Shown: positions 17,390-47,225 of the stretch, piece after piece
Layout: each line of letters starts with the position of its first letter
How positions within the stretch are numbered: the first letter of the stretch is position 1
Assembly (NCBI GenBank): GCA_964615335.1
Contig: CAZTMT010000005.1
Coordinates: 107,104-171,103 of the forward strand
Origin: an uncultured Clostridia bacterium
GTDB taxonomy: Bacteria > Acidobacteriota > Blastocatellia > HR10
Direction: 5' to 3'
DNA length: 64,000 nucleotides
The notes under the pieces: generated by a model
The model's input: the letters and a program-made list of their open reading frames with translations, nothing else
What the model was told of the DNA's origin: nothing
The model's database searches: none
Position numbers and translations under genes: made by a program

Positions 17390-17526
17390 ACCTGGCTCCT
17401 TCGACATCCGAGTCGAATTGTAGTCTCCTGGGGGGAAAGGTGCAAGGAAGACGGGAGTTGGCGCCCTTCTGGTCAAAAGCGGGAGGCCGAGGGAGACGCC
17501 GAAGCTCTCTCCTCGGCCCGCATCCT

Positions 17527-40700: not shown

Positions 40701-40911
40701 CGTTTTCTCCTCCTTTCTTTCCGATCTTTCCGACCCCGCCACACTTCGGCCACAGTGTACAGGCGGTCTCCACCCGTTGTCTTGAACAATCCAAGTCCTT
40801 TTGGAACAGACTTAATGTCTTCTGAAACCAGCTCGCGAGTGCCCGGGTCGCGTCCGAACGGAAGGCCCAAGGGGAACGAACCCCTGTGCCGAAAGTTTTT
40901 ATATATTTTCG

Positions 40912-40941
40912 TTGACAAAGTCGCCTAACTTCGGCTATCCT
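40912..40941 (+). promoter_or_regulatory. Sigma70-type promoter (TTGACA-N18-TATCCT) for the reductase operon, giving a ~290-nt leader
   Basis: Lies in an AT-rich island (gaaagtttttatatattttcgTTGACAaag...) within otherwise GC-rich DNA. Confidence 0.5.
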
Positions 40942-40979
40942 CATACCGCTCGAGCGCACGGGATGGGAGGACTCAGACG

Positions 40980-41126
40980 ATGGCCTACGAAGGACGAAGC
41001 GACAGGCGGGCGGCGCTCGACAGAACGAACGCGCGTCGCCTGAAGAGCATCGCGGTCCTCTTCGTGCGAGGACCGTGGACATCCGAGCAGGGGAGCGCCC
41101 TGGCCGACGACGTCTGTTGTCGCTGA
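40980..41126 (+). CDS. Upstream ORF (48 aa) ending ...DDVCCR*, in the leader of the first reductase gene
   Basis: ATG at 40980 lies 9 nt after GGGAGG. Two consecutive Cys codons (TGT TGT) precede Arg-stop. Duplicated TTCCCCCCGA motifs follow at about 41150 and 41191. Confidence 0.35.
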   Translation: MAYEGRSDRRAALDRTNARRLKSIAVLFVRGPWTSEQGSALADDVCCR

Positions 41127-41234: not shown

Positions 41235-42941
41235 ATGGGAGATCAACTCACGAGGGAAAAGAAGGAGAAGGAATCGAAGGCCGCGCGGATCGAACGGTTG
41301 AAGGCGGAGAAGAATCCGTGGGAGCATTTGGAGGAGATCCTCCGGTTCGCCCAAGAAGGACATGAGGCGATCCCGCGCGAATGGCTGGAGACATATTTTC
41401 GGTGGTGGGGAGTTTACACGCAGGGGGATGGGCGCGGCGTCTTCGGGCAGGCGACGCCGCATTTCATGCTGCGGATTCGCATCCCGAATGGCCTTCTTCT
41501 GGCGCATCAGCTTCGCACGATCGCCGATCTGGCCGAGCGGTACGCACGGGGTTTTGGCGACATCACGGTGCGTCAGAATATCCAACTGCACTGGGTGCGG
41601 ATCGAGGACATGCCGGATATTCTCTTCCGCCTCTTTCGCGTCGGATTGACGACGATGGGGGCCTGCGGCGATGACACGCGCAATATCACGGGGTGTCCCC
41701 TGGCGGGCGTGGATCGAGACGAGATTTGCGATGCCTCGCCCCTTGTTGTGCAGGCGACGCGTATGCTCGTCGGAGATGAGGCCTTTTACAATCTGCCGCG
41801 CAAGTTCAAGATCTGCATCACGGGGTGTCGCGTCTGGTGCTCCTATCCGGAGATCAACGACATCGGTCTGACGGCCATCGAGCGCGTGCGCGCCACTGGA
41901 GAGCGCGAGATCGGATTCTCGGTGCGCGTGGGAGGAGGGCTTTCGACAGCGCCCCATTTCGCCGTTCGCCTGAACGCCTTCGTCCGATGGTCGCAAGTCC
42001 TGCCGGTCATTCGCGGGATCGCCGAGATCTTTCGCGACAGCGACGTCCTGCGTCGGGATCGGGCGAAAGCGCGGTTGAAGTTTCTCTTCCTGGAGCACGG
42101 GTGGACGGCCGAGCGGTTTCAACAGGAGCTGGAGCAGCGCATCGGCTTTCGGCTCGATCCGGCGGTGGAGGAAGAGCCGCCGGATCATCCCTATCGAGAT
42201 CATGTGGGAATTCATCCGCAGAAGCAAGAGGGGTACTACTACGCGGGATTCGCCATCTTGCGGGGACGGATCACGGCGGAGCAGATGCGCCGCGCCGCCG
42301 ATCTGGCCGAGCGCTATGGGGACGGACAGCTCCGCACGACGAACATGCAGAATCTCATCGTGCTCAACATCCCGCAGGCACGGCTCGGGGCGTTCGTTCG
42401 AGAGGTCGAGGAGACGGATTTGCGCCTGGAGGCCTCCCCGTTCTGGCGCGGAGCGATCGCCTGCACGGGGACGGAGTTTTGCAAGTTGGCCATCGCGGAG
42501 ACCAAGAGCTTCGCGCGCTGGCTCGTCGAGGAGTTGGAGCGTCGCGTTCCCGAATTCGACGAGCCGATCAAGATCAACGTCAACGGGTGTCCGAATTCCT
42601 GCGGGCAGCACTGGATCGCGGACATCGGATTGCAGGGGTGCAAGATGAAGGTCGGAGGCGAGCAGGTGGATGCCTTCGACGTCTTGCTCGGGGGAGCTAT
42701 TGGCCGGGGGGCGACGTTCACTCGCCGCGTGGGATTCAAGGCTCCGGCGCGAGAGATCCCCGATGTCCTGGAACGCTTGCTTCGAGCGTATCTGGCCTGT
42801 CGGAGGCCGGGAGAGCGCTTCCATGAGTTCTGCCGCCGTCAGAGCGAGGCCGAGTTGCGCGCCCTGCTCGCCGGAGAGGTCGTGGAGGCTGCCGAAGCGC
42901 CCCCCTGGCCGGGTCCGCCTCCGCATGGCGTGGAGGGGTAA
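41235..42941 (+). CDS. Ferredoxin-dependent assimilatory sulfite/nitrite reductase (NirA/Sir family), paralog 1
   Basis: Two nitrite/sulfite-reductase ferredoxin-like half-domains. Siroheme/[4Fe-4S] Cys cluster motifs (TGCP...C; NGCPNSCGQHWIADIG). 568 aa from the ATG at 41235. Confidence 0.9.
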   Translation: MGDQLTREKKEKESKAARIERLKAEKNPWEHLEEILRFAQEGHEAIPREWLETYFRWWGVYTQGDGRGVFGQATPHFMLRIRIPNGLLLAHQLRTIADLAERYARGFGDITVRQNIQLHWVRIEDMPDILFRLFRVGLTTMGACGDDTRNITGCPLAGVDRDEICDASPLVVQATRMLVGDEAFYNLPRKFKICITGCRVWCSYPEINDIGLTAIERVRATGEREIGFSVRVGGGLSTAPHFAVRLNAFVRWSQVLPVIRGIAEIFRDSDVLRRDRAKARLKFLFLEHGWTAERFQQELEQRIGFRLDPAVEEEPPDHPYRDHVGIHPQKQEGYYYAGFAILRGRITAEQMRRAADLAERYGDGQLRTTNMQNLIVLNIPQARLGAFVREVEETDLRLEASPFWRGAIACTGTEFCKLAIAETKSFARWLVEELERRVPEFDEPIKINVNGCPNSCGQHWIADIGLQGCKMKVGGEQVDAFDVLLGGAIGRGATFTRRVGFKAPAREIPDVLERLLRAYLACRRPGERFHEFCRRQSEAELRALLAGEVVEAAEAPPWPGPPPHGVEG

Positions 42942-42942
42942 G

Positions 42943-43062
42943 ATGATTCCGACACTGTTCATCGAAGGGATCGCCGAAGGCCTCGTGCCCGAGGGAGCGA
43001 TCTGTTCGTGTATGTGTGCCAGCAGGCCGAGAGCGGGCCCTCCGCAGCGCTCTCCCGGATGA
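42943..43062 (+). CDS. Candidate leader peptide (39 aa) with C-S-C-M-C codon cluster
   Basis: ATG lies 2 nt after the paralog-1 stop and is preceded by GGAGGGG. Sequence is MIPTLFIEGIAEGLVPEGAICSCMCASRPRAGPPQRSPG*, with three Cys codons in five (43003-43017). It is followed by alternative hairpins and a terminator. Confidence 0.4.
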   Translation: MIPTLFIEGIAEGLVPEGAICSCMCASRPRAGPPQRSPG

Positions 43063-43087
43063 GCGCGGTGGACGGCAGAAGAAAGCG

Positions 43088-43124
43088 AGGCCCGCTCTCG
43101 GAGATTCCGAGGCGGGCCTTTTTG
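43088..43124 (+). terminator. Intrinsic terminator/attenuator between the two reductase genes
   Basis: Stem AGGCCCGCTCTCGG-agatt-CCGAGGCGGGCCT (13 bp, one bulge) followed by TTTTT. The 5' arm (43089-43101) is also perfectly complementary to 43027-43039 inside the leader ORF, giving an antiterminator alternative. Confidence 0.6.
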
Positions 43125-43146
43125 ATTCCGGATGGGAGGGGAAGCC

Positions 43147-44943
43147 ATGGGAGAAAAGGAACGTTTTGCTGAGCTGGAGCCACTTCTGGTCGGGCTGCCT
43201 CCGGAGGTGCAAGCCGAGATCCGTCGCTTCGCCGAAGAGATCGAGGCGTTTGAAGCCGGAGAGCGCGATCCGGAGGACTTCAAAAGGTTTCGTCTGGAGA
43301 ATGGCGTTTATGGGATTCGCGGAGCGCCGGAATGGCACATGGTGCGGGTGAAGGTGCGACTGGGACGCATCACGCCGGAGCAATTGGAGGCTTTGGCCGA
43401 TCTGGCGGACCGCTTCACGCCGAATCGGCGCGTGCATCTCACGACGCGGCAAGACATTCAATTTCACCGGGTGCGGCGCGAGGATGTTCCCCTTCTGCTC
43501 GCGCACATCGCGCGAGTGGGCCTGACGACGCGCGAGGCGTGCGGCAACACGGTGCGCAACGTCACGGCCTGTCCGCTGGCCGGCATCTCGCCGACCGAAG
43601 CCTTCGACGTGACGCCTTATGCCGATGCCGTCTCGCGCTACTTTCTGCGTCATCCGATCGCGCAGAACCTGCCGCGGAAATTTAAGATCGCCCTCGAGGG
43701 ATGCCGCCAGGATCACGCGCGCGTGAGGATCCACGACATCGGAGCGGTCGCCCTGGTGCGCGAGCGCGAGGGGGCGAAGGAGCGAGGCTTTCGCCTCTAC
43801 ATCGCCGGGGGATTGGGCGCGCAGCCGCGCGCGGCAGAGTTGTTGGAAGAGTTCACGCCGGCCGATCTGCTGATCCCCACCTGCGAAGCCATCCTCCGCG
43901 TCTTCGATCGGCATGGGGAGCGACGGCCCGAGCATACGTTCCGCATGCGCGCGCGGATGAAATTCCTGGCCCGACAGTGGGGGATCGAAAAGCTCCGCGA
44001 GGCGATCTTCGCTGAGCGTCGTGTGCTTCTGGCCACGCGTTCGGGTCTGGTCCGGTATGAAATCGCAGAGGAGCAAGAGGAGGAGCCTCCGGTCCTCGAA
44101 CTCCCGAGAGGGGGAGCGGCCGGCTGGTCATCGTCGCCCGACTACCAGCGGTGGCGGCAAGCGAACGTCCTGGCGCAGAAGCAGCCGGGCTACTACGCCG
44201 TCACCGTGCGCTGCGCGCTGGGGGATGTGACCAGCGACGCATTGCGTCATATCGCGCGCATTGCGCGCCGTTTCTGTGGCGGGCGCCTTCGGACGACGAT
44301 CGCGCAGAATTTTCTTCTCCGATGGGTCCCGGAAGCAGCCCTGCCCTACGTGTATCGCGAGCTGGCGGCCATAGGACTGGCCGAAGCCGATCAGCTTGCG
44401 GATATCACCCGCTGTCCGGGTGCCGATACGTGTCAACTGGCTCTCACGCGCTCGCGGGGTTTGGCCGAAGCGCTTCGTCAGGTATTGCGGAGCGACGGGT
44501 TCGGGGACATCCCGGAGCTTCAGGATCTCACCATTAAGATCTCCGGCTGCATGAATTCCTGCGGGCAGCATCACATCGCCGACCTCGGTTTCTATGGGGC
44601 GTCGAGCGGCGTGGATGGGCACGCGCTGCCCCAGTACGTTTTGCTCGTCGGAGGAGGCACAGGGTTTGAACGCGTCACATTCGGGCGGGCCCTTGCGCGC
44701 GTTCCGGCGCAGTGGGCTCCCGAGGCGGCCCGGCGCCTGCTCATGTTCTATCGGGAACAGCGATACGCGGGCGAATCCTTCCGGGAGTTCGTCGAGCGCG
44801 TCGGTGCCCCACGTCTTCGAGAGGTGCTCGCGCCCTTTGAACGCGTGCCTTCGTTTGAAGAAGCGCCCGAGCTGTATCGCGATCTCGGAGCCGAGGAGGA
44901 GGTCTTTCGCCCCGAGATCGGTCCGGGCGAGTGCGCCGCATGA
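43147..44943 (+). CDS. sir: Ferredoxin-dependent sulfite reductase (NirA/Sir family), paralog 2
   Basis: Same domain architecture as paralog 1 (ACGNTVRNVTACPLAG; GCMNSCGQHHIADLG). Adjacent to siroheme synthesis and cysH genes. RBS GGGAGGGG. Confidence 0.9.
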   Translation: MGEKERFAELEPLLVGLPPEVQAEIRRFAEEIEAFEAGERDPEDFKRFRLENGVYGIRGAPEWHMVRVKVRLGRITPEQLEALADLADRFTPNRRVHLTTRQDIQFHRVRREDVPLLLAHIARVGLTTREACGNTVRNVTACPLAGISPTEAFDVTPYADAVSRYFLRHPIAQNLPRKFKIALEGCRQDHARVRIHDIGAVALVREREGAKERGFRLYIAGGLGAQPRAAELLEEFTPADLLIPTCEAILRVFDRHGERRPEHTFRMRARMKFLARQWGIEKLREAIFAERRVLLATRSGLVRYEIAEEQEEEPPVLELPRGGAAGWSSSPDYQRWRQANVLAQKQPGYYAVTVRCALGDVTSDALRHIARIARRFCGGRLRTTIAQNFLLRWVPEAALPYVYRELAAIGLAEADQLADITRCPGADTCQLALTRSRGLAEALRQVLRSDGFGDIPELQDLTIKISGCMNSCGQHHIADLGFYGASSGVDGHALPQYVLLVGGGTGFERVTFGRALARVPAQWAPEAARRLLMFYREQRYAGESFREFVERVGAPRLREVLAPFERVPSFEEAPELYRDLGAEEEVFRPEIGPGECAA

Positions 44944-44954
44944 GGGAGGACGTT

Positions 44955-45782
44955 ATGAGTGAACGGCATCGGTTGGGGAAAGTCTATCTGGTCGGCGCGG
45001 GGCCGGGCGATCCGGGCCTTCTCACCGTGCGCGGCCTGGAGGTGCTCAGCACGTGCGATGTCGTCATCTACGACGCGCTCGTCAATGCGCGTCTGCTGAA
45101 CTACGCTCCTCCGGAAGCCGAGCGTCTCCCGGTTGGCCCTGCGCATGGCGCGCATCGCCTGACACAGGAGGAAATCCATCGGATCATGATCGAGCGCGCG
45201 CGGCGCGGTCTGATCGTCGTGCGCCTGAAGGGGGGAGATCCGTTCATCTTCGGGCGCGGGGGGGAGGAAGCGCTGGCCCTTCGCGAGGCGGGCATCCCGT
45301 GGGAGGTCATTCCCGGCGTCTCAGCCGGACAGGCCGTGGCCGCTTATGCGGGAATTCCGCTCACCCATCGCGGCCTCTCCTCCAGCGTCGCCTTCGTGAC
45401 AGGTCACGAGTGCGCCGACAAAACAACGCAGGTGAACTGGGAAGCGCTCGCCCGGGCCGTGGACACGCTGGTCGTCTTCATGGGCGCGCGGACCCTTCCG
45501 CAGATCGTCGCGCGGTTGCTCGAAGCCGGGCGTGCGCCCGAGACGCCCATCGCCGTCATCGAGTGGGGAACGTATCCGTATCAGCGCGTGCGCGTGGCGA
45601 CGCTGGCTACGATCTGCGAACGCACGGCCTGTGATCCCGTGTGCGCGCCGGCCTTGATCGTCATCGGGGAAGTCGTCGCGCTGCGGGAGGCGCTGGCCTG
45701 GTTTCCGACCGAGGAGGTTACAGCTTCTGTTCCAGAGCCGGAGGCTCTAGCGCTTCTCCTCAGCGAGGAGGTGGAGAGATGA
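44955..45782 (+). CDS. cobA: Uroporphyrinogen-III C-methyltransferase (SUMT)
   Basis: VYLVGAGPGDPGLLTVRG...VVRLKGGDPFIFGRGGEE is the class III SAM methyltransferase signature of CobA/CysG-C. Confidence 0.92.
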   Translation: MSERHRLGKVYLVGAGPGDPGLLTVRGLEVLSTCDVVIYDALVNARLLNYAPPEAERLPVGPAHGAHRLTQEEIHRIMIERARRGLIVVRLKGGDPFIFGRGGEEALALREAGIPWEVIPGVSAGQAVAAYAGIPLTHRGLSSSVAFVTGHECADKTTQVNWEALARAVDTLVVFMGARTLPQIVARLLEAGRAPETPIAVIEWGTYPYQRVRVATLATICERTACDPVCAPALIVIGEVVALREALAWFPTEEVTASVPEPEALALLLSEEVER

Positions 45783-46453
45783 GGTATTATCCGGCTTTTC
45801 TCGATCTGCGCGAGCGCGAGGTTCTGGTCGTCGGGGGAGGGAAGGTCGCCGAGCGCAAGGTGAAGACGCTGCTTGAAGTCGGAGCGCGCGTGCGCGTGGT
45901 CAGCCTCGATCTCACCCCCGCGCTCGCCGAGATGGCCGCTCTGGGCCAGATCGCTTATCGCGCGGGCGAGTTCGAAGACGCGGATCTGGAGGGCGTCTGG
46001 CTCGTCATCGGGGCGACGAACGATCCCCGGGCGAATCAACGCGTGGCCGAAGCGGCCGCCCGACATCGTCTCTTCTGCAACATCGTGGACGTTCCCGCGC
46101 TTTGTTCGTTTCTGGTCCCGGCTCTTATCGAGCGAGGGGATGTTTTGATCGCGATCTCCACGAGCGGGCAGAGTCCGGCCCTCGCGCAACGACTCAAGCG
46201 CGAGATCGAAATGATGATCGGTCCGGAGTATGGGCGGTTGGCGGAGCTGCTCGGGCGCCTGCGCGCATTCGTGAAGCAGAAGATTCCGGACGCCGAGCGA
46301 CGAGCTGACATATTCCATCGGCTCGTCCAGTCCGATCTCCCGGAGCGGCTTCGCGCCGAAAACCCCTCCAATGTGGAGCGCCATGCGCGCCAGCTCATCG
46401 AGCGCTGGATCGAAGAGGAATCTCATCAGAAGGAGGTGAACGAGTATGAGTGA
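45779..46453 (+). CDS. sirC: Precorrin-2 dehydrogenase / sirohydrochlorin ferrochelatase (SirC/CysG N-terminal domain-like)
   Basis: Rossmann motif VLVVGGGKVAERK. ATG overlaps the cobA stop (ATGA). Confidence 0.8.
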   Translation: MRYYPAFLDLREREVLVVGGGKVAERKVKTLLEVGARVRVVSLDLTPALAEMAALGQIAYRAGEFEDADLEGVWLVIGATNDPRANQRVAEAAARHRLFCNIVDVPALCSFLVPALIERGDVLIAISTSGQSPALAQRLKREIEMMIGPEYGRLAELLGRLRAFVKQKIPDAERRADIFHRLVQSDLPERLRAENPSNVERHARQLIERWIEEESHQKEVNEYE

Positions 46454-47225
46454 CGCCGTGTTTCAGGCAGAAGAGATTCGACATCTCAACGAGGAGTTCG
46501 AGAAGCGACCGCCTCAGGCGGTGCTCCAATGGGCTCTGGAGCGCTTTCATCCGCGGATCGCTCTGGCCTCAAGTTTCGGAGCGGAAGACGTTGTCCTCAT
46601 TGATATGCTCTGGCGGATGAATCCGCAAGCTCGCGTCTTCACGCTCGATACGTGGCGTTTGCCGACGGAGACCTACGAGGTCATAGATCGTATCCGCGAG
46701 CGCTATGGGATCGAGGTGGAGATCTACACGCCGGATCCCGAGGAGGTCACCGAGATGGTGCGCGCGCACGGGTACAACCTGATGTATCGCTCGATCGAGC
46801 TGCGCAAGCTCTGTTGCCACGTGCGGAAAGTGAAGCCTCTGGAGCGGGCGCTTGCGGGGCTGGATGCCTGGATCACGGGCTTGCGTCGCGAGCAGGCCGT
46901 GACGCGCGCGCACGTGACGAAGATCGAATGGGATGCGCAGCATGGGGGGCGTATGAAGGTGAATCCTCTGGCCGATTGGTCGTGGGATCAGGTCTGGGAG
47001 TACATTCGCCGACACAAGGTGCCGTACAATGCGCTGCACGATCGCGGATACCCCTCCATTGGATGCGCTCCGTGCACGCGAGCCGTTCGACCGGGCGAGG
47101 ATCCGCGCGCCGGACGATGGTGGTGGGAGCAAAATCCCGCCCTTCAGGAATGCGGGTTGCACGTCACTCCGGATCCGGCGCGCGTGGGAGTCGTTCTCCC
47201 GGAGACGCCTTCAGGACGCGGGTGA
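46446..47225 (+). CDS. cysH: Adenylylsulfate (APS)/PAPS reductase, thioredoxin-dependent, with Fe-S Cys motifs
   Basis: PP-loop (ASSFGAEDVVLIDM). Cys pairs CC...CxxC (LCCHVRK, GCAPCT) are typical of Fe-S APS reductases. C-terminal ECGLH catalytic Cys. Confidence 0.9.
   Translation: MSDAVFQAEEIRHLNEEFEKRPPQAVLQWALERFHPRIALASSFGAEDVVLIDMLWRMNPQARVFTLDTWRLPTETYEVIDRIRERYGIEVEIYTPDPEEVTEMVRAHGYNLMYRSIELRKLCCHVRKVKPLERALAGLDAWITGLRREQAVTRAHVTKIEWDAQHGGRMKVNPLADWSWDQVWEYIRRHKVPYNALHDRGYPSIGCAPCTRAVRPGEDPRAGRWWWEQNPALQECGLHVTPDPARVGVVLPETPSGRG

What the first reader, a model, noticed from the sequence alone, without database searches (positions are those of the whole stretch)
42943..43124. Candidate cysteine-codon leader-peptide attenuator between two sulfite/nitrite reductase paralogs
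- A 39-codon ORF starts 2 nt after the stop of reductase paralog 1 with a good SD (GGAGGGG). It contains Cys-Ser-Cys-Met-Cys at 43003-43017.
- Downstream there are three mutually exclusive pairings:
  (i) a GAGAGCG/CGCTCTC hairpin at 43029-35 : 43048-54;
  (ii) a perfect 13-nt antiterminator pairing 43027-39 : 43089-101;
  (iii) a strong intrinsic terminator at 43088-43119 plus T5.
- The reductase-2 SD follows 10 nt after the T-run, so reductase-2 expression must pass through this terminator.
- This is the architecture of classical amino-acid attenuators (trpL/hisL), here with Cys regulatory codons in front of a cysteine-biosynthesis enzyme. Cys-codon attenuation is at most rarely described.
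Basis: seen in the sequence. Interest (0 to 1): 0.82.

Follow-up and report, generated by a model that had tools for sequence, protein, structure and literature searches.

The report
Cysteine-sensing leader-peptide transcription attenuator
A short reading frame with clustered cysteine codons, followed by a terminator that can be switched off, lies between two reductase genes and most likely turns on the sulfate-assimilation genes only when cysteine runs low; the mechanism is classical, but the element belongs to a widespread family that appears to be uncatalogued.

Summary
The 39-codon ORF is at 42943-43062 and carries Cys-Ser-Cys-Met-Cys. The 13-nt perfect pairing is 43027-39 with 43089-101. 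The strongest hairpin plus T-run on the + strand is at 43087-43123.

Six distinct relatives (sir1 ~88% identical, sir2 ~80%) keep four things:
- a uORF starting within a few nt of the sir1 stop;
- the Cys cluster;
- arm A, arm B and the terminator;
- the spacings between them.
The rest of the peptide diverges. More distant sir2 or cysH operons carry the same unit as a promoter-proximal leader.

The A:B helix is 93% paired over 10 sequences, with compensatory changes. It is the only conserved long-range helix.

Two corrections. Hairpin (i) is at chance level and not conserved, so this is a three-segment design, not the four-segment trpL design. Cys-codon attenuation has also been described before, in mycobacteria (translational) and upstream of Rhodobacterales cysS (predicted).

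Beyond the window, Cys-rich leaders with terminators and antiterminators precede sulfite reductase genes in several phyla: 46 of 145 loci, against 0-1 in controls. No Rfam family matches.

Verdict: a real new member of a known kind. Interest is moderate.

The parts
41235..42941 (+). sir1: NirA-like sirohaem/4Fe-4S reductase, the upstream cistron. Its stop codon is TAA at 42939-41.
   Evidence: Pfam NIR_SIR and NIR_SIR_ferr. The best NCBIfam match is ferredoxin-nitrite reductase at 420 bits, below the cut-off of 594. The start was set by comparison with 567-569 aa relatives.
42932..42938 (+). Shine-Dalgarno GGAGGGG for the uORF, lying inside the last codons of sir1
   Evidence: GGAGGG is conserved in all relatives, 5-7 nt before the uORF ATG.
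42943..43062 (+). Leader ORF (39 aa plus stop). It starts 1 nt after the sir1 stop, so it is probably translationally coupled to sir1.
   Evidence: In the relatives the ATG lies between -7 and +2 nt of the sir1 stop. The N-terminal 18-21 codons are not conserved, and there is no Pfam hit.
43003..43017 (+). Regulatory codons TGT-TCG-TGT-ATG-TGT (Cys-Ser-Cys-Met-Cys)
   Evidence: Relatives carry 2-5 Cys codons at the same place. All three use the minor codon TGT; in long ORFs of the window the count is TGC 123 to TGT 72.
43027..43039 (+). Arm A: the 5' strand of the antiterminator. It lies inside the leader ORF, 9 nt after the last Cys codon. A weaker extension may cover 43040-45.
   Evidence: A:B is 93% paired in 10 sequences, with compensatory changes at 2 positions.
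43060..43062 (+). Leader stop codon TGA, 20 nt after arm A and 26 nt before arm B
   Evidence: The spacing from A to the stop is 20 nt (21 in L085) in all 10 relatives, although the spacer sequence differs.
43087..43102 (+). Arm B: the 5' strand of the terminator. Its core, 43089-101, is shared with the antiterminator.
43106..43120 (+). Arm C: the 3' strand of the terminator hairpin. The loop is GAT at 43103-05.
   Evidence: Hairpin energy is -26.9 to -29.7 kcal/mol. The outer stem is 100% paired in 10 sequences, with 3 compensated positions.
43119..43123 (+). T-run (TTTTT) of the intrinsic terminator
43134..43141 (+). Shine-Dalgarno GGGAGGGG of sir2, 10 nt after the T-run. There is no room for a promoter in between.
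43147..44943 (+). sir2: sulfite/nitrite reductase family, the first gene controlled by the attenuator
   Evidence: Pfam NIR_SIR. Homologs in other phyla are preceded by Cys leaders.
44931..47225 (+). Downstream genes that depend on read-through: uroporphyrinogen-III methyltransferase (44931-45782), sirohaem synthase NAD-binding/chelatase part (45641-46453 as the longest ORF) and APS/PAPS reductase cysH (46446-47225)
   Evidence: Pfam and NCBIfam PRK02090 above its cut-off. Relatives show the same gene order, followed by a TauE-family gene.

Best explanation
This is a ribosome-mediated (leader-peptide) transcription attenuator that senses charged tRNA-Cys.

Transcription enters from the sir1 promoter. 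A ribosome finishing sir1 re-initiates, or a new one binds at GGAGGGG, on the 39-codon leader ORF.

When Cys-tRNA is plentiful, the ribosome runs through the three TGT codons, over arm A (43027-39) and on to the stop at 43060. Arm A is then inside or directly behind the ribosome, and the ribosome sits between A and B. So arm B (43089-101) pairs with arm C, the hairpin plus U-run forms, and RNA polymerase stops at about 43123. sir1 mRNA is made, but mRNA for sir2, the sirohaem genes and cysH is not.

When Cys-tRNA is scarce, the ribosome stalls with a TGT codon in its A site. Its front edge then reaches at most about 43025-43030, so arm A is largely free. A pairs with B as soon as B leaves the polymerase (13 bp, -29.7 kcal/mol). 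The terminator cannot form, and transcription continues into the sulfate-assimilation genes.

What is shown: the sequence elements, their alternative pairing, and their conservation and covariation.
What is inferred: translation of the ORF, stalling at the Cys codons, the timing of ribosome and polymerase, and the response to cysteine.
For: Anatomy
- All the elements are present at the stated coordinates.
- The terminator is in the MFE and centroid folds and is the strongest on its strand in 64 kb.
- With arm C absent, A:B is the MFE (-48.8 to -50.4 kcal/mol). With all the RNA present, the terminator fold (-59.1) and the forced A:B fold (-56.2) are nearly equal in energy, so the order of events decides the outcome.
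- Ribosome geometry: the last Cys codon ends 9 nt before A.

Conservation in the close clade
- There are six distinct relatives (L081, L082=L164, L161-163, L165, L166-167, and the window).
- All keep a uORF start at the sir1 stop, 2-5 Cys codons, and arms A, B and C.
- All keep the spacings: Cys, 9 nt, A, 20 nt, stop, 24-26 nt, B.
- The peptide outside the Cys cluster is not conserved.

More distant relatives
- In L083, L084, L085, L169, L170, L168 and L087 the same unit follows a TTGACA-type promoter as the 5' leader of sir2 or cysH operons.

Pairing statistics
- A:B is 93.1% paired over 10 sequences, against 34-50% when the partner is slid. Two positions carry compensatory changes.
- The terminator outer stem is 100% paired with 3 compensated positions. 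This includes a three-way change in L085 (GTGGG / CCCAC / GTGGG).
- RNAalifold independently returns A:B as the only conserved long-range helix.
- Complementarity between the upstream segment and arm B exceeds shuffles in 8 relatives, with z from -2.5 to -4.9.

Family level
- At least 4 Cys in 8 aa occur in small ORFs upstream of sir homologs in 46 of 145 loci. The reverse strand gives 0 and shuffles give 0-1.
- 49 of 62 such loci have a hairpin plus T-run behind the Cys cluster.
- In 47 units from distant phyla, antiterminator complementarity has a mean z of -2.3, with 29 of 47 below -2.

Context
- The controlled genes are sulfite reductase, sirohaem synthesis and cysH.
Against: - There are no expression data. 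Translation of the ORF, stalling and termination are all inferred.
- Only 10 alignable sequences were found, and they are related, so the covariation is modest: 2-3 compensated positions per helix, and the shuffle controls are not strict probabilities.
- The window has three non-adjacent Cys codons and L165 has only two. This is a weaker signal than the poly-Cys runs seen elsewhere.
- No 1:2 anti-antiterminator or pause hairpin was found. An untranslated leader would therefore read through, and nothing visible synchronises ribosome and polymerase.
- A ribosome at the stop codon would not physically cover arm A, which ends 21 nt upstream of the stop. The block of A:B in the cysteine-replete state rests on timing or steric arguments.
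- The T-runs of some relatives are interrupted (GTTTCGTT, TTCTCATTC).
Confidence: 0.8

Rival explanations
1. This is a plain intercistronic (partial) terminator that ends or down-tunes the sir1 transcript. The Cys-containing ORF and the A:B complementarity are incidental.
For: The hairpin plus T5 is a canonical terminator directly downstream of a gene. Spurious ORFs are common at 63% G+C.
Against: The ORF start, the Cys cluster, the stop position (20 nt after A) and arm A are all conserved, while neighbouring leader codons are not. The same unit occurs without any upstream gene in L083, L085, L169 and L170. Cys-rich uORFs are enriched about 50-fold over controls upstream of sir homologs. sir2 has no room for its own promoter after the terminator.
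Confidence: 0.04
2. This is an RNA switch that does not need translation. A protein or metabolite stabilises either A:B or B:C, and the ORF is not the sensor.
For: A, B and C alone form a complete two-state switch with nearly equal energies. In some Bacteroidota a SAM riboswitch sits next to the Cys leaders, which shows that these leaders also use ligand sensing.
Against: The spacer between A and B is not conserved in sequence or structure, so no aptamer-like conserved core exists. There is no Rfam match. The in-frame start, Cys codons and fixed stop position are conserved, which only makes sense if the frame is read.
Confidence: 0.07
3. This is translational attenuation of the mycobacterial type. 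Stalling at the Cys codons opens a structure that hides the sir2 ribosome-binding site, and the hairpin matters as a structure rather than as a terminator.
For: This is the only experimentally shown Cys-codon attenuator mechanism (10.1101/834739). T-runs are imperfect in some relatives.
Against: The sir2 SD (43134-41) lies outside the conserved helices and is not stably paired in the folds. The hairpin is followed by T5 in the window and by T-rich runs in most relatives and distant family members.
Confidence: 0.05
4. The ORF encodes a functional Cys-rich micropeptide, for example one that binds metal or takes part in redox chemistry. The terminator is unrelated to it.
For: The ORF has a good SD and is conserved in presence and length (36-42 aa).
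Against: Outside the Cys cluster the peptide diverges almost completely between relatives whose flanking proteins are 80-88% identical. The C-terminal half is conserved at the nucleotide level where it forms arm A, and the window keeps the pairing while changing the peptide (PRAG against PVAG). It has no family match. Across phyla only the Cys run is shared.
Confidence: 0.04

Closest known systems
Classical leader-peptide transcription attenuators (E. coli/Salmonella trpL, hisL, pheL, thrL, leuL, ilv leaders)
   Same: It has a short SD-led ORF with clustered codons of the pathway's end-product amino acid. It has an intrinsic terminator just before the biosynthetic genes, and an antiterminator that uses the terminator's 5' arm. 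Ribosome position selects between the two structures.
   Different: - It senses cysteine.
- It has only three segments: no 1:2 anti-antiterminator or pause hairpin was found, so the untranslated state should read through.
- The stop codon lies 20 nt beyond arm A rather than just before segment 2.
- In this clade it is inside an operon, with the leader start abutting the stop of the upstream gene.
- The organism is probably from Acidobacteriota, not a proteobacterium.
uORFC-8-2 motif upstream of cysS in Rhodobacterales (PMC8632094)
   Same: It is a predicted ribosome-mediated attenuator with conserved Cys codons in a uORF, followed by an intrinsic terminator stem and a U-run.
   Different: That motif has two tandem Cys codons at positions 14-15, lying inside the first stem, and it controls cysteinyl-tRNA synthetase in one alphaproteobacterial order. 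Here the Cys codons lie upstream of the stems and the target is sulfite reductase, sirohaem synthesis and cysH. The sequence and structure are unrelated: no Rfam model matched.
Polycysteine leaderless sORF attenuators of mycobacteria (Canestrari et al. 2020, 10.1101/834739; predicted earlier in PMC1262725)
   Same: Cys codons in a small upstream ORF report Cys-tRNA supply and control operons of cysteine and sulfur metabolism.
   Different: In mycobacteria the mechanism is translational (SD sequestration), the sORFs are leaderless at the transcript's 5' end, and no terminators are seen. Here the ORF has an SD, sits behind another gene, and is followed by a canonical terminator and antiterminator pair.
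B. subtilis trp attenuator inside the aro supraoperon (own knowledge, not tested here)
   Same: It is an attenuator located between genes of a longer transcription unit, so that read-through from an upstream promoter is gated by the end product.
   Different: In B. subtilis the sensor is the TRAP protein, not a translating ribosome.
S-box (SAM-I) riboswitch control of sulfur-assimilation genes
   Same: It also works through a choice between terminator and antiterminator upstream of sulfate-assimilation or cysteine genes. In some Bacteroidota loci it sits in series with the Cys leaders (L142, L036).
   Different: It senses its ligand directly through an aptamer. No SAM aptamer is present in the window.

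Membership tests
Leader-peptide (ribosome-mediated) transcription attenuator | Short ORF with a start codon and SD in the transcribed region upstream of the regulated gene | tested here: met
   ATG at 42943 lies 5 nt after GGAGGGG, and the ORF is 39 codons. It is conserved in 6 close relatives and in the distant leaders.
Leader-peptide (ribosome-mediated) transcription attenuator | Cluster of codons for the amino acid made by the regulated pathway | tested here: met
   There are 3 Cys codons within 5 codons (43003-17). Relatives have 2-5 and distant loci up to 13. Enrichment is 46 of 145 loci against 0-1 in controls. The regulated genes are sulfite reductase, sirohaem synthesis and cysH.
Leader-peptide (ribosome-mediated) transcription attenuator | Intrinsic terminator between the leader ORF and the structural gene | tested here: met
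   The hairpin at 43087-43120 (-27 to -30 kcal/mol) is followed by T5. It is conserved, with compensatory changes.
Leader-peptide (ribosome-mediated) transcription attenuator | Antiterminator pairing that is mutually exclusive with the terminator | tested here: met
   43027-39 pairs with 43089-101 over 13 of 13 bp. The helix is 93% paired over 10 sequences and is the RNAalifold consensus.
Leader-peptide (ribosome-mediated) transcription attenuator | Regulatory codons placed so that a stalled ribosome leaves the antiterminator strand free, while a ribosome that proceeds occludes it | tested here: inconclusive
   The last Cys codon ends 9 nt before A, and this is conserved, which fits a free arm A on stalling. 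The stop lies 20 nt beyond A, so occlusion at the stop codon rests on steric or timing arguments.
Leader-peptide (ribosome-mediated) transcription attenuator | Segment 1:2 anti-antiterminator or pause hairpin (four-segment trpL architecture) | tested here: not met
   Duplexes of A with the upstream 75 nt and of A with the spacer are at shuffle level in all 10 sequences. Hairpin (i) has z = -0.9 and is not conserved. This feature defines the trpL subtype, not the class.
Leader-peptide (ribosome-mediated) transcription attenuator | Read-through rises when the cognate charged tRNA is limiting and depends on translation of the leader | not testable with these tools
   This needs Term-seq or reporter assays.
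Mycobacterial polycysteine LL-sORF translational attenuators | Leaderless sORF at the 5' end of the transcript, with at least 2 consecutive Cys codons | tested here: not met
   The ORF has an SD and follows sir1. In the window the Cys codons are separated by Ser and Met.
Mycobacterial polycysteine LL-sORF translational attenuators | RNA duplex that sequesters the SD of the downstream gene | tested here: not met
   The sir2 SD at 43134-41 lies outside the conserved helices and is not stably paired.
uORFC-8-2 (cysS, Rhodobacterales) | Two tandem Cys codons inside the first stem, upstream of cysS, in alphaproteobacteria | tested here: not met
   The gene context differs and the Cys codons lie upstream of the stems. 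No covariance model of that motif was available to me, so sequence-level membership was not tested directly.
Known riboswitches, T-boxes and leader families in Rfam 15 | Match to a curated covariance model | tested here: not met
   Only a tRNA reaches its gathering score in the window. Nothing in 42600-43400 comes near a gathering score. Related loci match only SAM riboswitches, outside the Cys leaders.

The most novel reading that the evidence does not exclude
The window element is one instance of a large, uncatalogued family of cysteine-codon transcription attenuators. The family gates assimilatory sulfite reductase and cysH operons in Acidobacteriota-like, Bacteroidota, Ignavibacteriota and other lineages. 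Its units often occur in tandem or in series with SAM riboswitches.

In this clade the attenuator has been captured inside an operon, and its leader ORF is fed by ribosomes terminating on the upstream gene. One transcript could therefore give constitutive sir1 while the sulfate-reduction genes depend on cysteine. The three-segment design should read through by default when the leader is not translated.
Probability: 0.55. Interest if true: 0.65.

Novelty: new member of a known kind. Interest (0 to 1): 0.55.

Why it matters
Leader-peptide attenuation is textbook for Trp, His, Phe, Thr, Leu and Ile/Val in proteobacteria. For cysteine it is known only as a translational mechanism in mycobacteria and as a prediction for cysS in one alphaproteobacterial order.

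If confirmed, this element would show three things:
- Sulfate assimilation in several poorly studied phyla is controlled by tRNA-Cys charging through classical termination control.
- Such an attenuator can work inside an operon, coupled to the upstream cistron.
- A simple sequence signature (a Cys-rich uORF, a terminator, and complementarity to the terminator's 5' arm) can improve annotation of sulfur-metabolism regulation in metagenomes.

Cultivable carriers exist, such as Pontibacter, Chitinophaga ginsengisoli and Marinoscillum furvescens, so the family can be tested directly.

Tried and rejected
- **Source genome.** Exact look-ups of sir2 (both starts) and of the leader peptide found nothing. 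The GTDB species set has no close relative; the best is 57%. The cluster of the 100% identical protein P0001 carries no name. The phylum is therefore only inferred: the best named homologs are Blastocatellia, Solibacteraceae and Terriglobia.
- **Known RNA family.** None matched.
- **Hairpin (i) and any 'segment 1'.** Both are at chance level and not conserved, so the four-segment trpL model is rejected.
- **Dispersed repeat or mobile element.** Rejected.
- **Other Cys leaders in the window.** None is convincing; the hits lie in alternative frames of genes.
- **A second switch between the sORF upstream of sir1 and the sir1 SD.** The folds of 5 relatives share no structure.
- **Inner stem of the terminator.** Pair counts on the MAFFT alignments are unreliable, because the C arms differ by one nucleotide in register. 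Only the outer stem was counted, and the inner stems were checked by folding each sequence.
- **Arm-B finder.** In one search my automatic finder failed for L166 and L087, and those two rows should be ignored.
- **Prior reports.** Literature searches for Cys leaders at sulfite reductase genes or in Bacteroidota or Acidobacteria found nothing. The library is incomplete, so this is not proof of absence.

Full report
**1. Observation**

- The upstream reductase (sir1, 41235-42941) ends with TAA at 42939-41, and GGAGGGG lies at 42932-38.
- An ATG at 42943 opens a 39-codon frame, MIPTLFIEGIAEGLVPEGAICSCMCASRPRAGPPQRSPG, which ends at TGA 43060-62.
- TGT-TCG-TGT-ATG-TGT occupies 43003-17.
- CCGAGAGCGGGCC (43027-39, arm A) is the perfect reverse complement of GGCCCGCTCTCGG (43089-101, arm B).
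- Arm B is also the 5' strand of a hairpin whose 3' strand (arm C) is 43106-43120, followed by TTTTT (43119-23).
- The sir2 SD (43134-41) and ATG (43147) follow 10 and 23 nt later.

These features are more than chance would give.
- The hairpin appears in the MFE and centroid folds. It is the strongest hairpin plus T-run on the + strand of the whole window. Only one comparable terminator exists, at a gene end on the other strand.
- The A:B repeat is one of four inverted repeats of at least 13 nt within 120 nt in 64 kb.
- It is not part of a dispersed repeat.

**2. Context**

Both flanking genes are sirohaem/4Fe-4S nitrite/sulfite reductase family proteins. They are only 34% identical to each other. 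Neither reaches an NCBIfam equivalog cut-off, and sir1 is the closer of the two to ferredoxin-nitrite reductase.

Behind sir2 come uroporphyrinogen-III methyltransferase, the NAD-binding/chelatase part of sirohaem synthase, and cysH. In relatives a TauE-family gene follows.

The only promoter-like site nearby lies upstream of sir1, at 40912-41. There is no room for a promoter between the T-run and sir2. Expression of sir2 and the genes behind it therefore has to pass through the hairpin.

**3. Comparative evidence, close relatives**

The source genome is not in the species-representative set, where the best match is 57%. Metagenome and assembly collections, however, hold relatives with sir1 about 88% and sir2 about 80% identical and the same gene order.

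There are six distinct intergenic sequences, counting the window. Every one has the following:
- a uORF whose ATG lies between 7 nt before and 2 nt after the end of the sir1 stop codon, behind a conserved GGAGGG;
- 18-21 unconserved codons;
- a cluster of 2-5 Cys codons, 18 of 19 of them TGT, which is the minor codon here;
- then 9 nt, arm A, 20 nt, the stop codon, 24-26 nt, arm B, a loop, arm C and a T-rich run.

The peptide after the Cys cluster changes (window CASRPRAGPPQRSPG, relatives CPGAPVAGPRGG..M) while the A:B pairing is kept. The constraint is therefore on the RNA and on the reading frame, not on the peptide.

**4. Comparative evidence, more distant relatives**

sir2 homologs of 57-70% identity lack sir1. 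They have a TTGACA-type promoter, a Cys leader and the same A/B/C unit in front of sir2 (L083, L084, L085, L169, L170, L087=L001) or in front of cysH-sir2-cysG (L168). The attenuator is thus the ancestral 5' leader of the sulfate-assimilation operon. In the window clade, sir1 with its own promoter lies upstream, which makes the attenuator intra-operonic.

On a 10-sequence alignment:
- A:B is 93.1% paired, against 34-50% with slid partners. Two positions have compensatory changes and several have G-U/A-U exchanges.
- The outer terminator stem is 100% paired, with three compensated positions.
- In L085 the B-arm change G to A is matched in both partners (GTGGG / CCCAC / GTGGG).
- RNAalifold, run without any guidance, returns A:B as the only conserved long-range helix. 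This holds with and without arm C in the alignment.
- The spacer between A and B is conserved in length (47-55 nt) but not in sequence or structure.
- The stop codon lies 20 nt (21 in L085) after arm A in all ten sequences, although the 20 nt differ between subclades. This is hard to explain unless a ribosome reads the frame and its end position matters.

**5. Energetics and mechanism**

- The terminator hairpin is worth -27 to -30 kcal/mol, and the A:B duplex -29.7.
- If arm C is not yet made, the RNA from 43018 or 43027 onward folds into A:B (about -50 kcal/mol).
- With the full RNA, the terminator fold (-59.1) and the A:B fold (-56.2) are close in energy. The outcome should therefore depend on what is free when B emerges.
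- A ribosome held with any of the three TGT codons in its A site reaches at most about 43025-43030 and leaves A essentially free. A ribosome that continues covers A and then sits at the stop codon, in the loop between A and B, while the terminator (which starts 27 nt after the stop) can still fold.

This gives read-through when cysteine is limiting and termination when cysteine is plentiful, which is the correct sense for a cysteine-biosynthesis operon.

It is worth -11.4 kcal/mol with z = -0.9, it competes with a -18.9 kcal/mol hairpin at 43041-72, and it is absent in relatives. No upstream 'segment 1' pairs with A either. The design therefore has three segments, and without translation it should read through. 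The juxtaposition of the sir1 stop and the leader start suggests that ribosomes finishing sir1 feed the leader. That would also place the leading ribosome close behind the polymerase. This last step is inference.

**6. The wider family**

I scanned the 450 nt upstream of 145 sir2 homologs from many phyla.
- Small ORFs with at least 4 Cys in 8 residues occur in 46 loci. The reverse strand gives 0, and dinucleotide shuffles give 0-1. Examples are MRGKSHLRRIMCCCCCCCV (Terriglobia) and MPVMCCCCCCSC (Pontibacter); Saprospiraceae have runs of up to 11 Cys.
- 49 of 62 loci with a Cys uORF (at least 3 Cys in 7 aa) have a hairpin plus T-run behind the Cys cluster. The typical spacings are 27-51 nt from the last Cys to the stop, and 20-37 nt from the stop to the hairpin. 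Several loci carry two such units in tandem.
- In 47 distinct units from loci no more than 60% identical to sir2, complementarity between the post-Cys segment and the terminator's 5' arm exceeds shuffles. The mean z is -2.3, 29 of 47 are below -2, and only 4 are above 0.
- None of this matches an Rfam family. In two Bacteroidota loci a SAM riboswitch lies directly upstream of the Cys leaders.

**7. What is known**

- Candidate Cys leader peptides without terminators were predicted upstream of actinobacterial cys operons (PMC1262725).
- In Mycobacterium smegmatis, polycysteine leaderless sORFs were shown to act as translational attenuators by SD sequestration (10.1101/834739).
- The uORFC-8-2 motif, with two Cys codons and an intrinsic terminator, was predicted as a ribosome-mediated attenuator of cysS in Rhodobacterales (PMC8632094).
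- I found no report of Cys-codon terminator attenuators at sulfite reductase or cysH operons, or in Acidobacteriota or Bacteroidota. The searchable library is incomplete.

The element works like a classical leader-peptide attenuator and meets that class's defining sequence features. It does not meet the four-segment trpL subtype, the mycobacterial leaderless translational type, or the uORFC-8-2 description.

**8. Verdict**

- It is a new member of a known kind: a cysteine-specific leader-peptide transcription attenuator.
- Its unusual traits are an intra-operonic position abutting the upstream stop codon, a three-segment design, and a fixed distance from arm A to the stop codon.
- It appears to belong to a widespread family across several phyla that has not been catalogued.
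- Confidence in the mechanism is about 0.8, and all functional steps remain to be shown experimentally.
- Interest is moderate (0.55). The mechanism is not surprising, but the result usefully extends it and is readily testable.

Noticed in passing
window 40890-41126: A strongly conserved promoter block lies upstream of sir1: TTTTTATATATTTTCGTTGACAAAGTCGCC...GGCTATCCT, with TTGACA and TATACT in relatives. It is followed by a conserved 48-aa sORF (40980-41126), MAYEGRSDRRAALDRTNARRLKSIAVLFVRGPWTSEQGSALADDVCCR, which in relatives ends ...ISRGPWASESGSALADDVCRR. Differences in its C-terminal half are mostly synonymous, so it looks like a real coding sORF. It has no Pfam or NCBIfam match. No conserved RNA switch to the sir1 SD was found. 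Its function is unknown; it may be a second regulatory peptide.
   Followed up: partly
L142 3535-3950; L036 5468-5947: In these Bacteroidota loci a SAM riboswitch (RF00162) sits directly upstream of one or two poly-Cys leader ORFs in front of the sulfite reductase gene. This suggests control by both SAM and Cys-tRNA in series.
   Followed up: partly
L059, L064, L136, L047, L112, L130, L124, L156 (300-450 nt upstream of the sir homolog): Each of these loci has two successive Cys-rich uORFs, each with its own hairpin plus T-run. These are tandem attenuators.
   Followed up: partly
L168 1800-2040: The Cys leader MKKGGFTIHTFHLTPGGCMCCCCQMCLRGLRKVVGVESDDVRVAA and its terminator precede cysH-sir2-cysG here, rather than sir2 itself. 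A further 37-aa Cys-free ORF lies between the terminator and cysH.
   Followed up: no
window 42918-42936: CCTCC (42918-22) and GGAGG (42932-36) at the end of sir1 could pair and hide the leader's SD until a ribosome finishing sir1 opens the pairing. The motif CCTCCGCATGGC(G/A)T(G/A)GAGGG is conserved in relatives.
   Followed up: no
window 43040-43062 and the equivalent positions in L081, L082, L161, L165, L166, L083, L085, L169, L170: The distance from arm A to the leader stop codon is fixed at 20-21 nt even though the spacer sequence is not conserved. A ribosome at the stop would not cover arm A, so the reason for the exact spacing is unexplained.
   Followed up: partly
window 17479-17521 (- strand): This is the only other canonical strong terminator in the window (-27.2 kcal/mol, followed by TTTT). 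It lies immediately after the gene at 18882-17527 on the - strand, which shows that this organism uses intrinsic terminators at gene ends.
   Followed up: no
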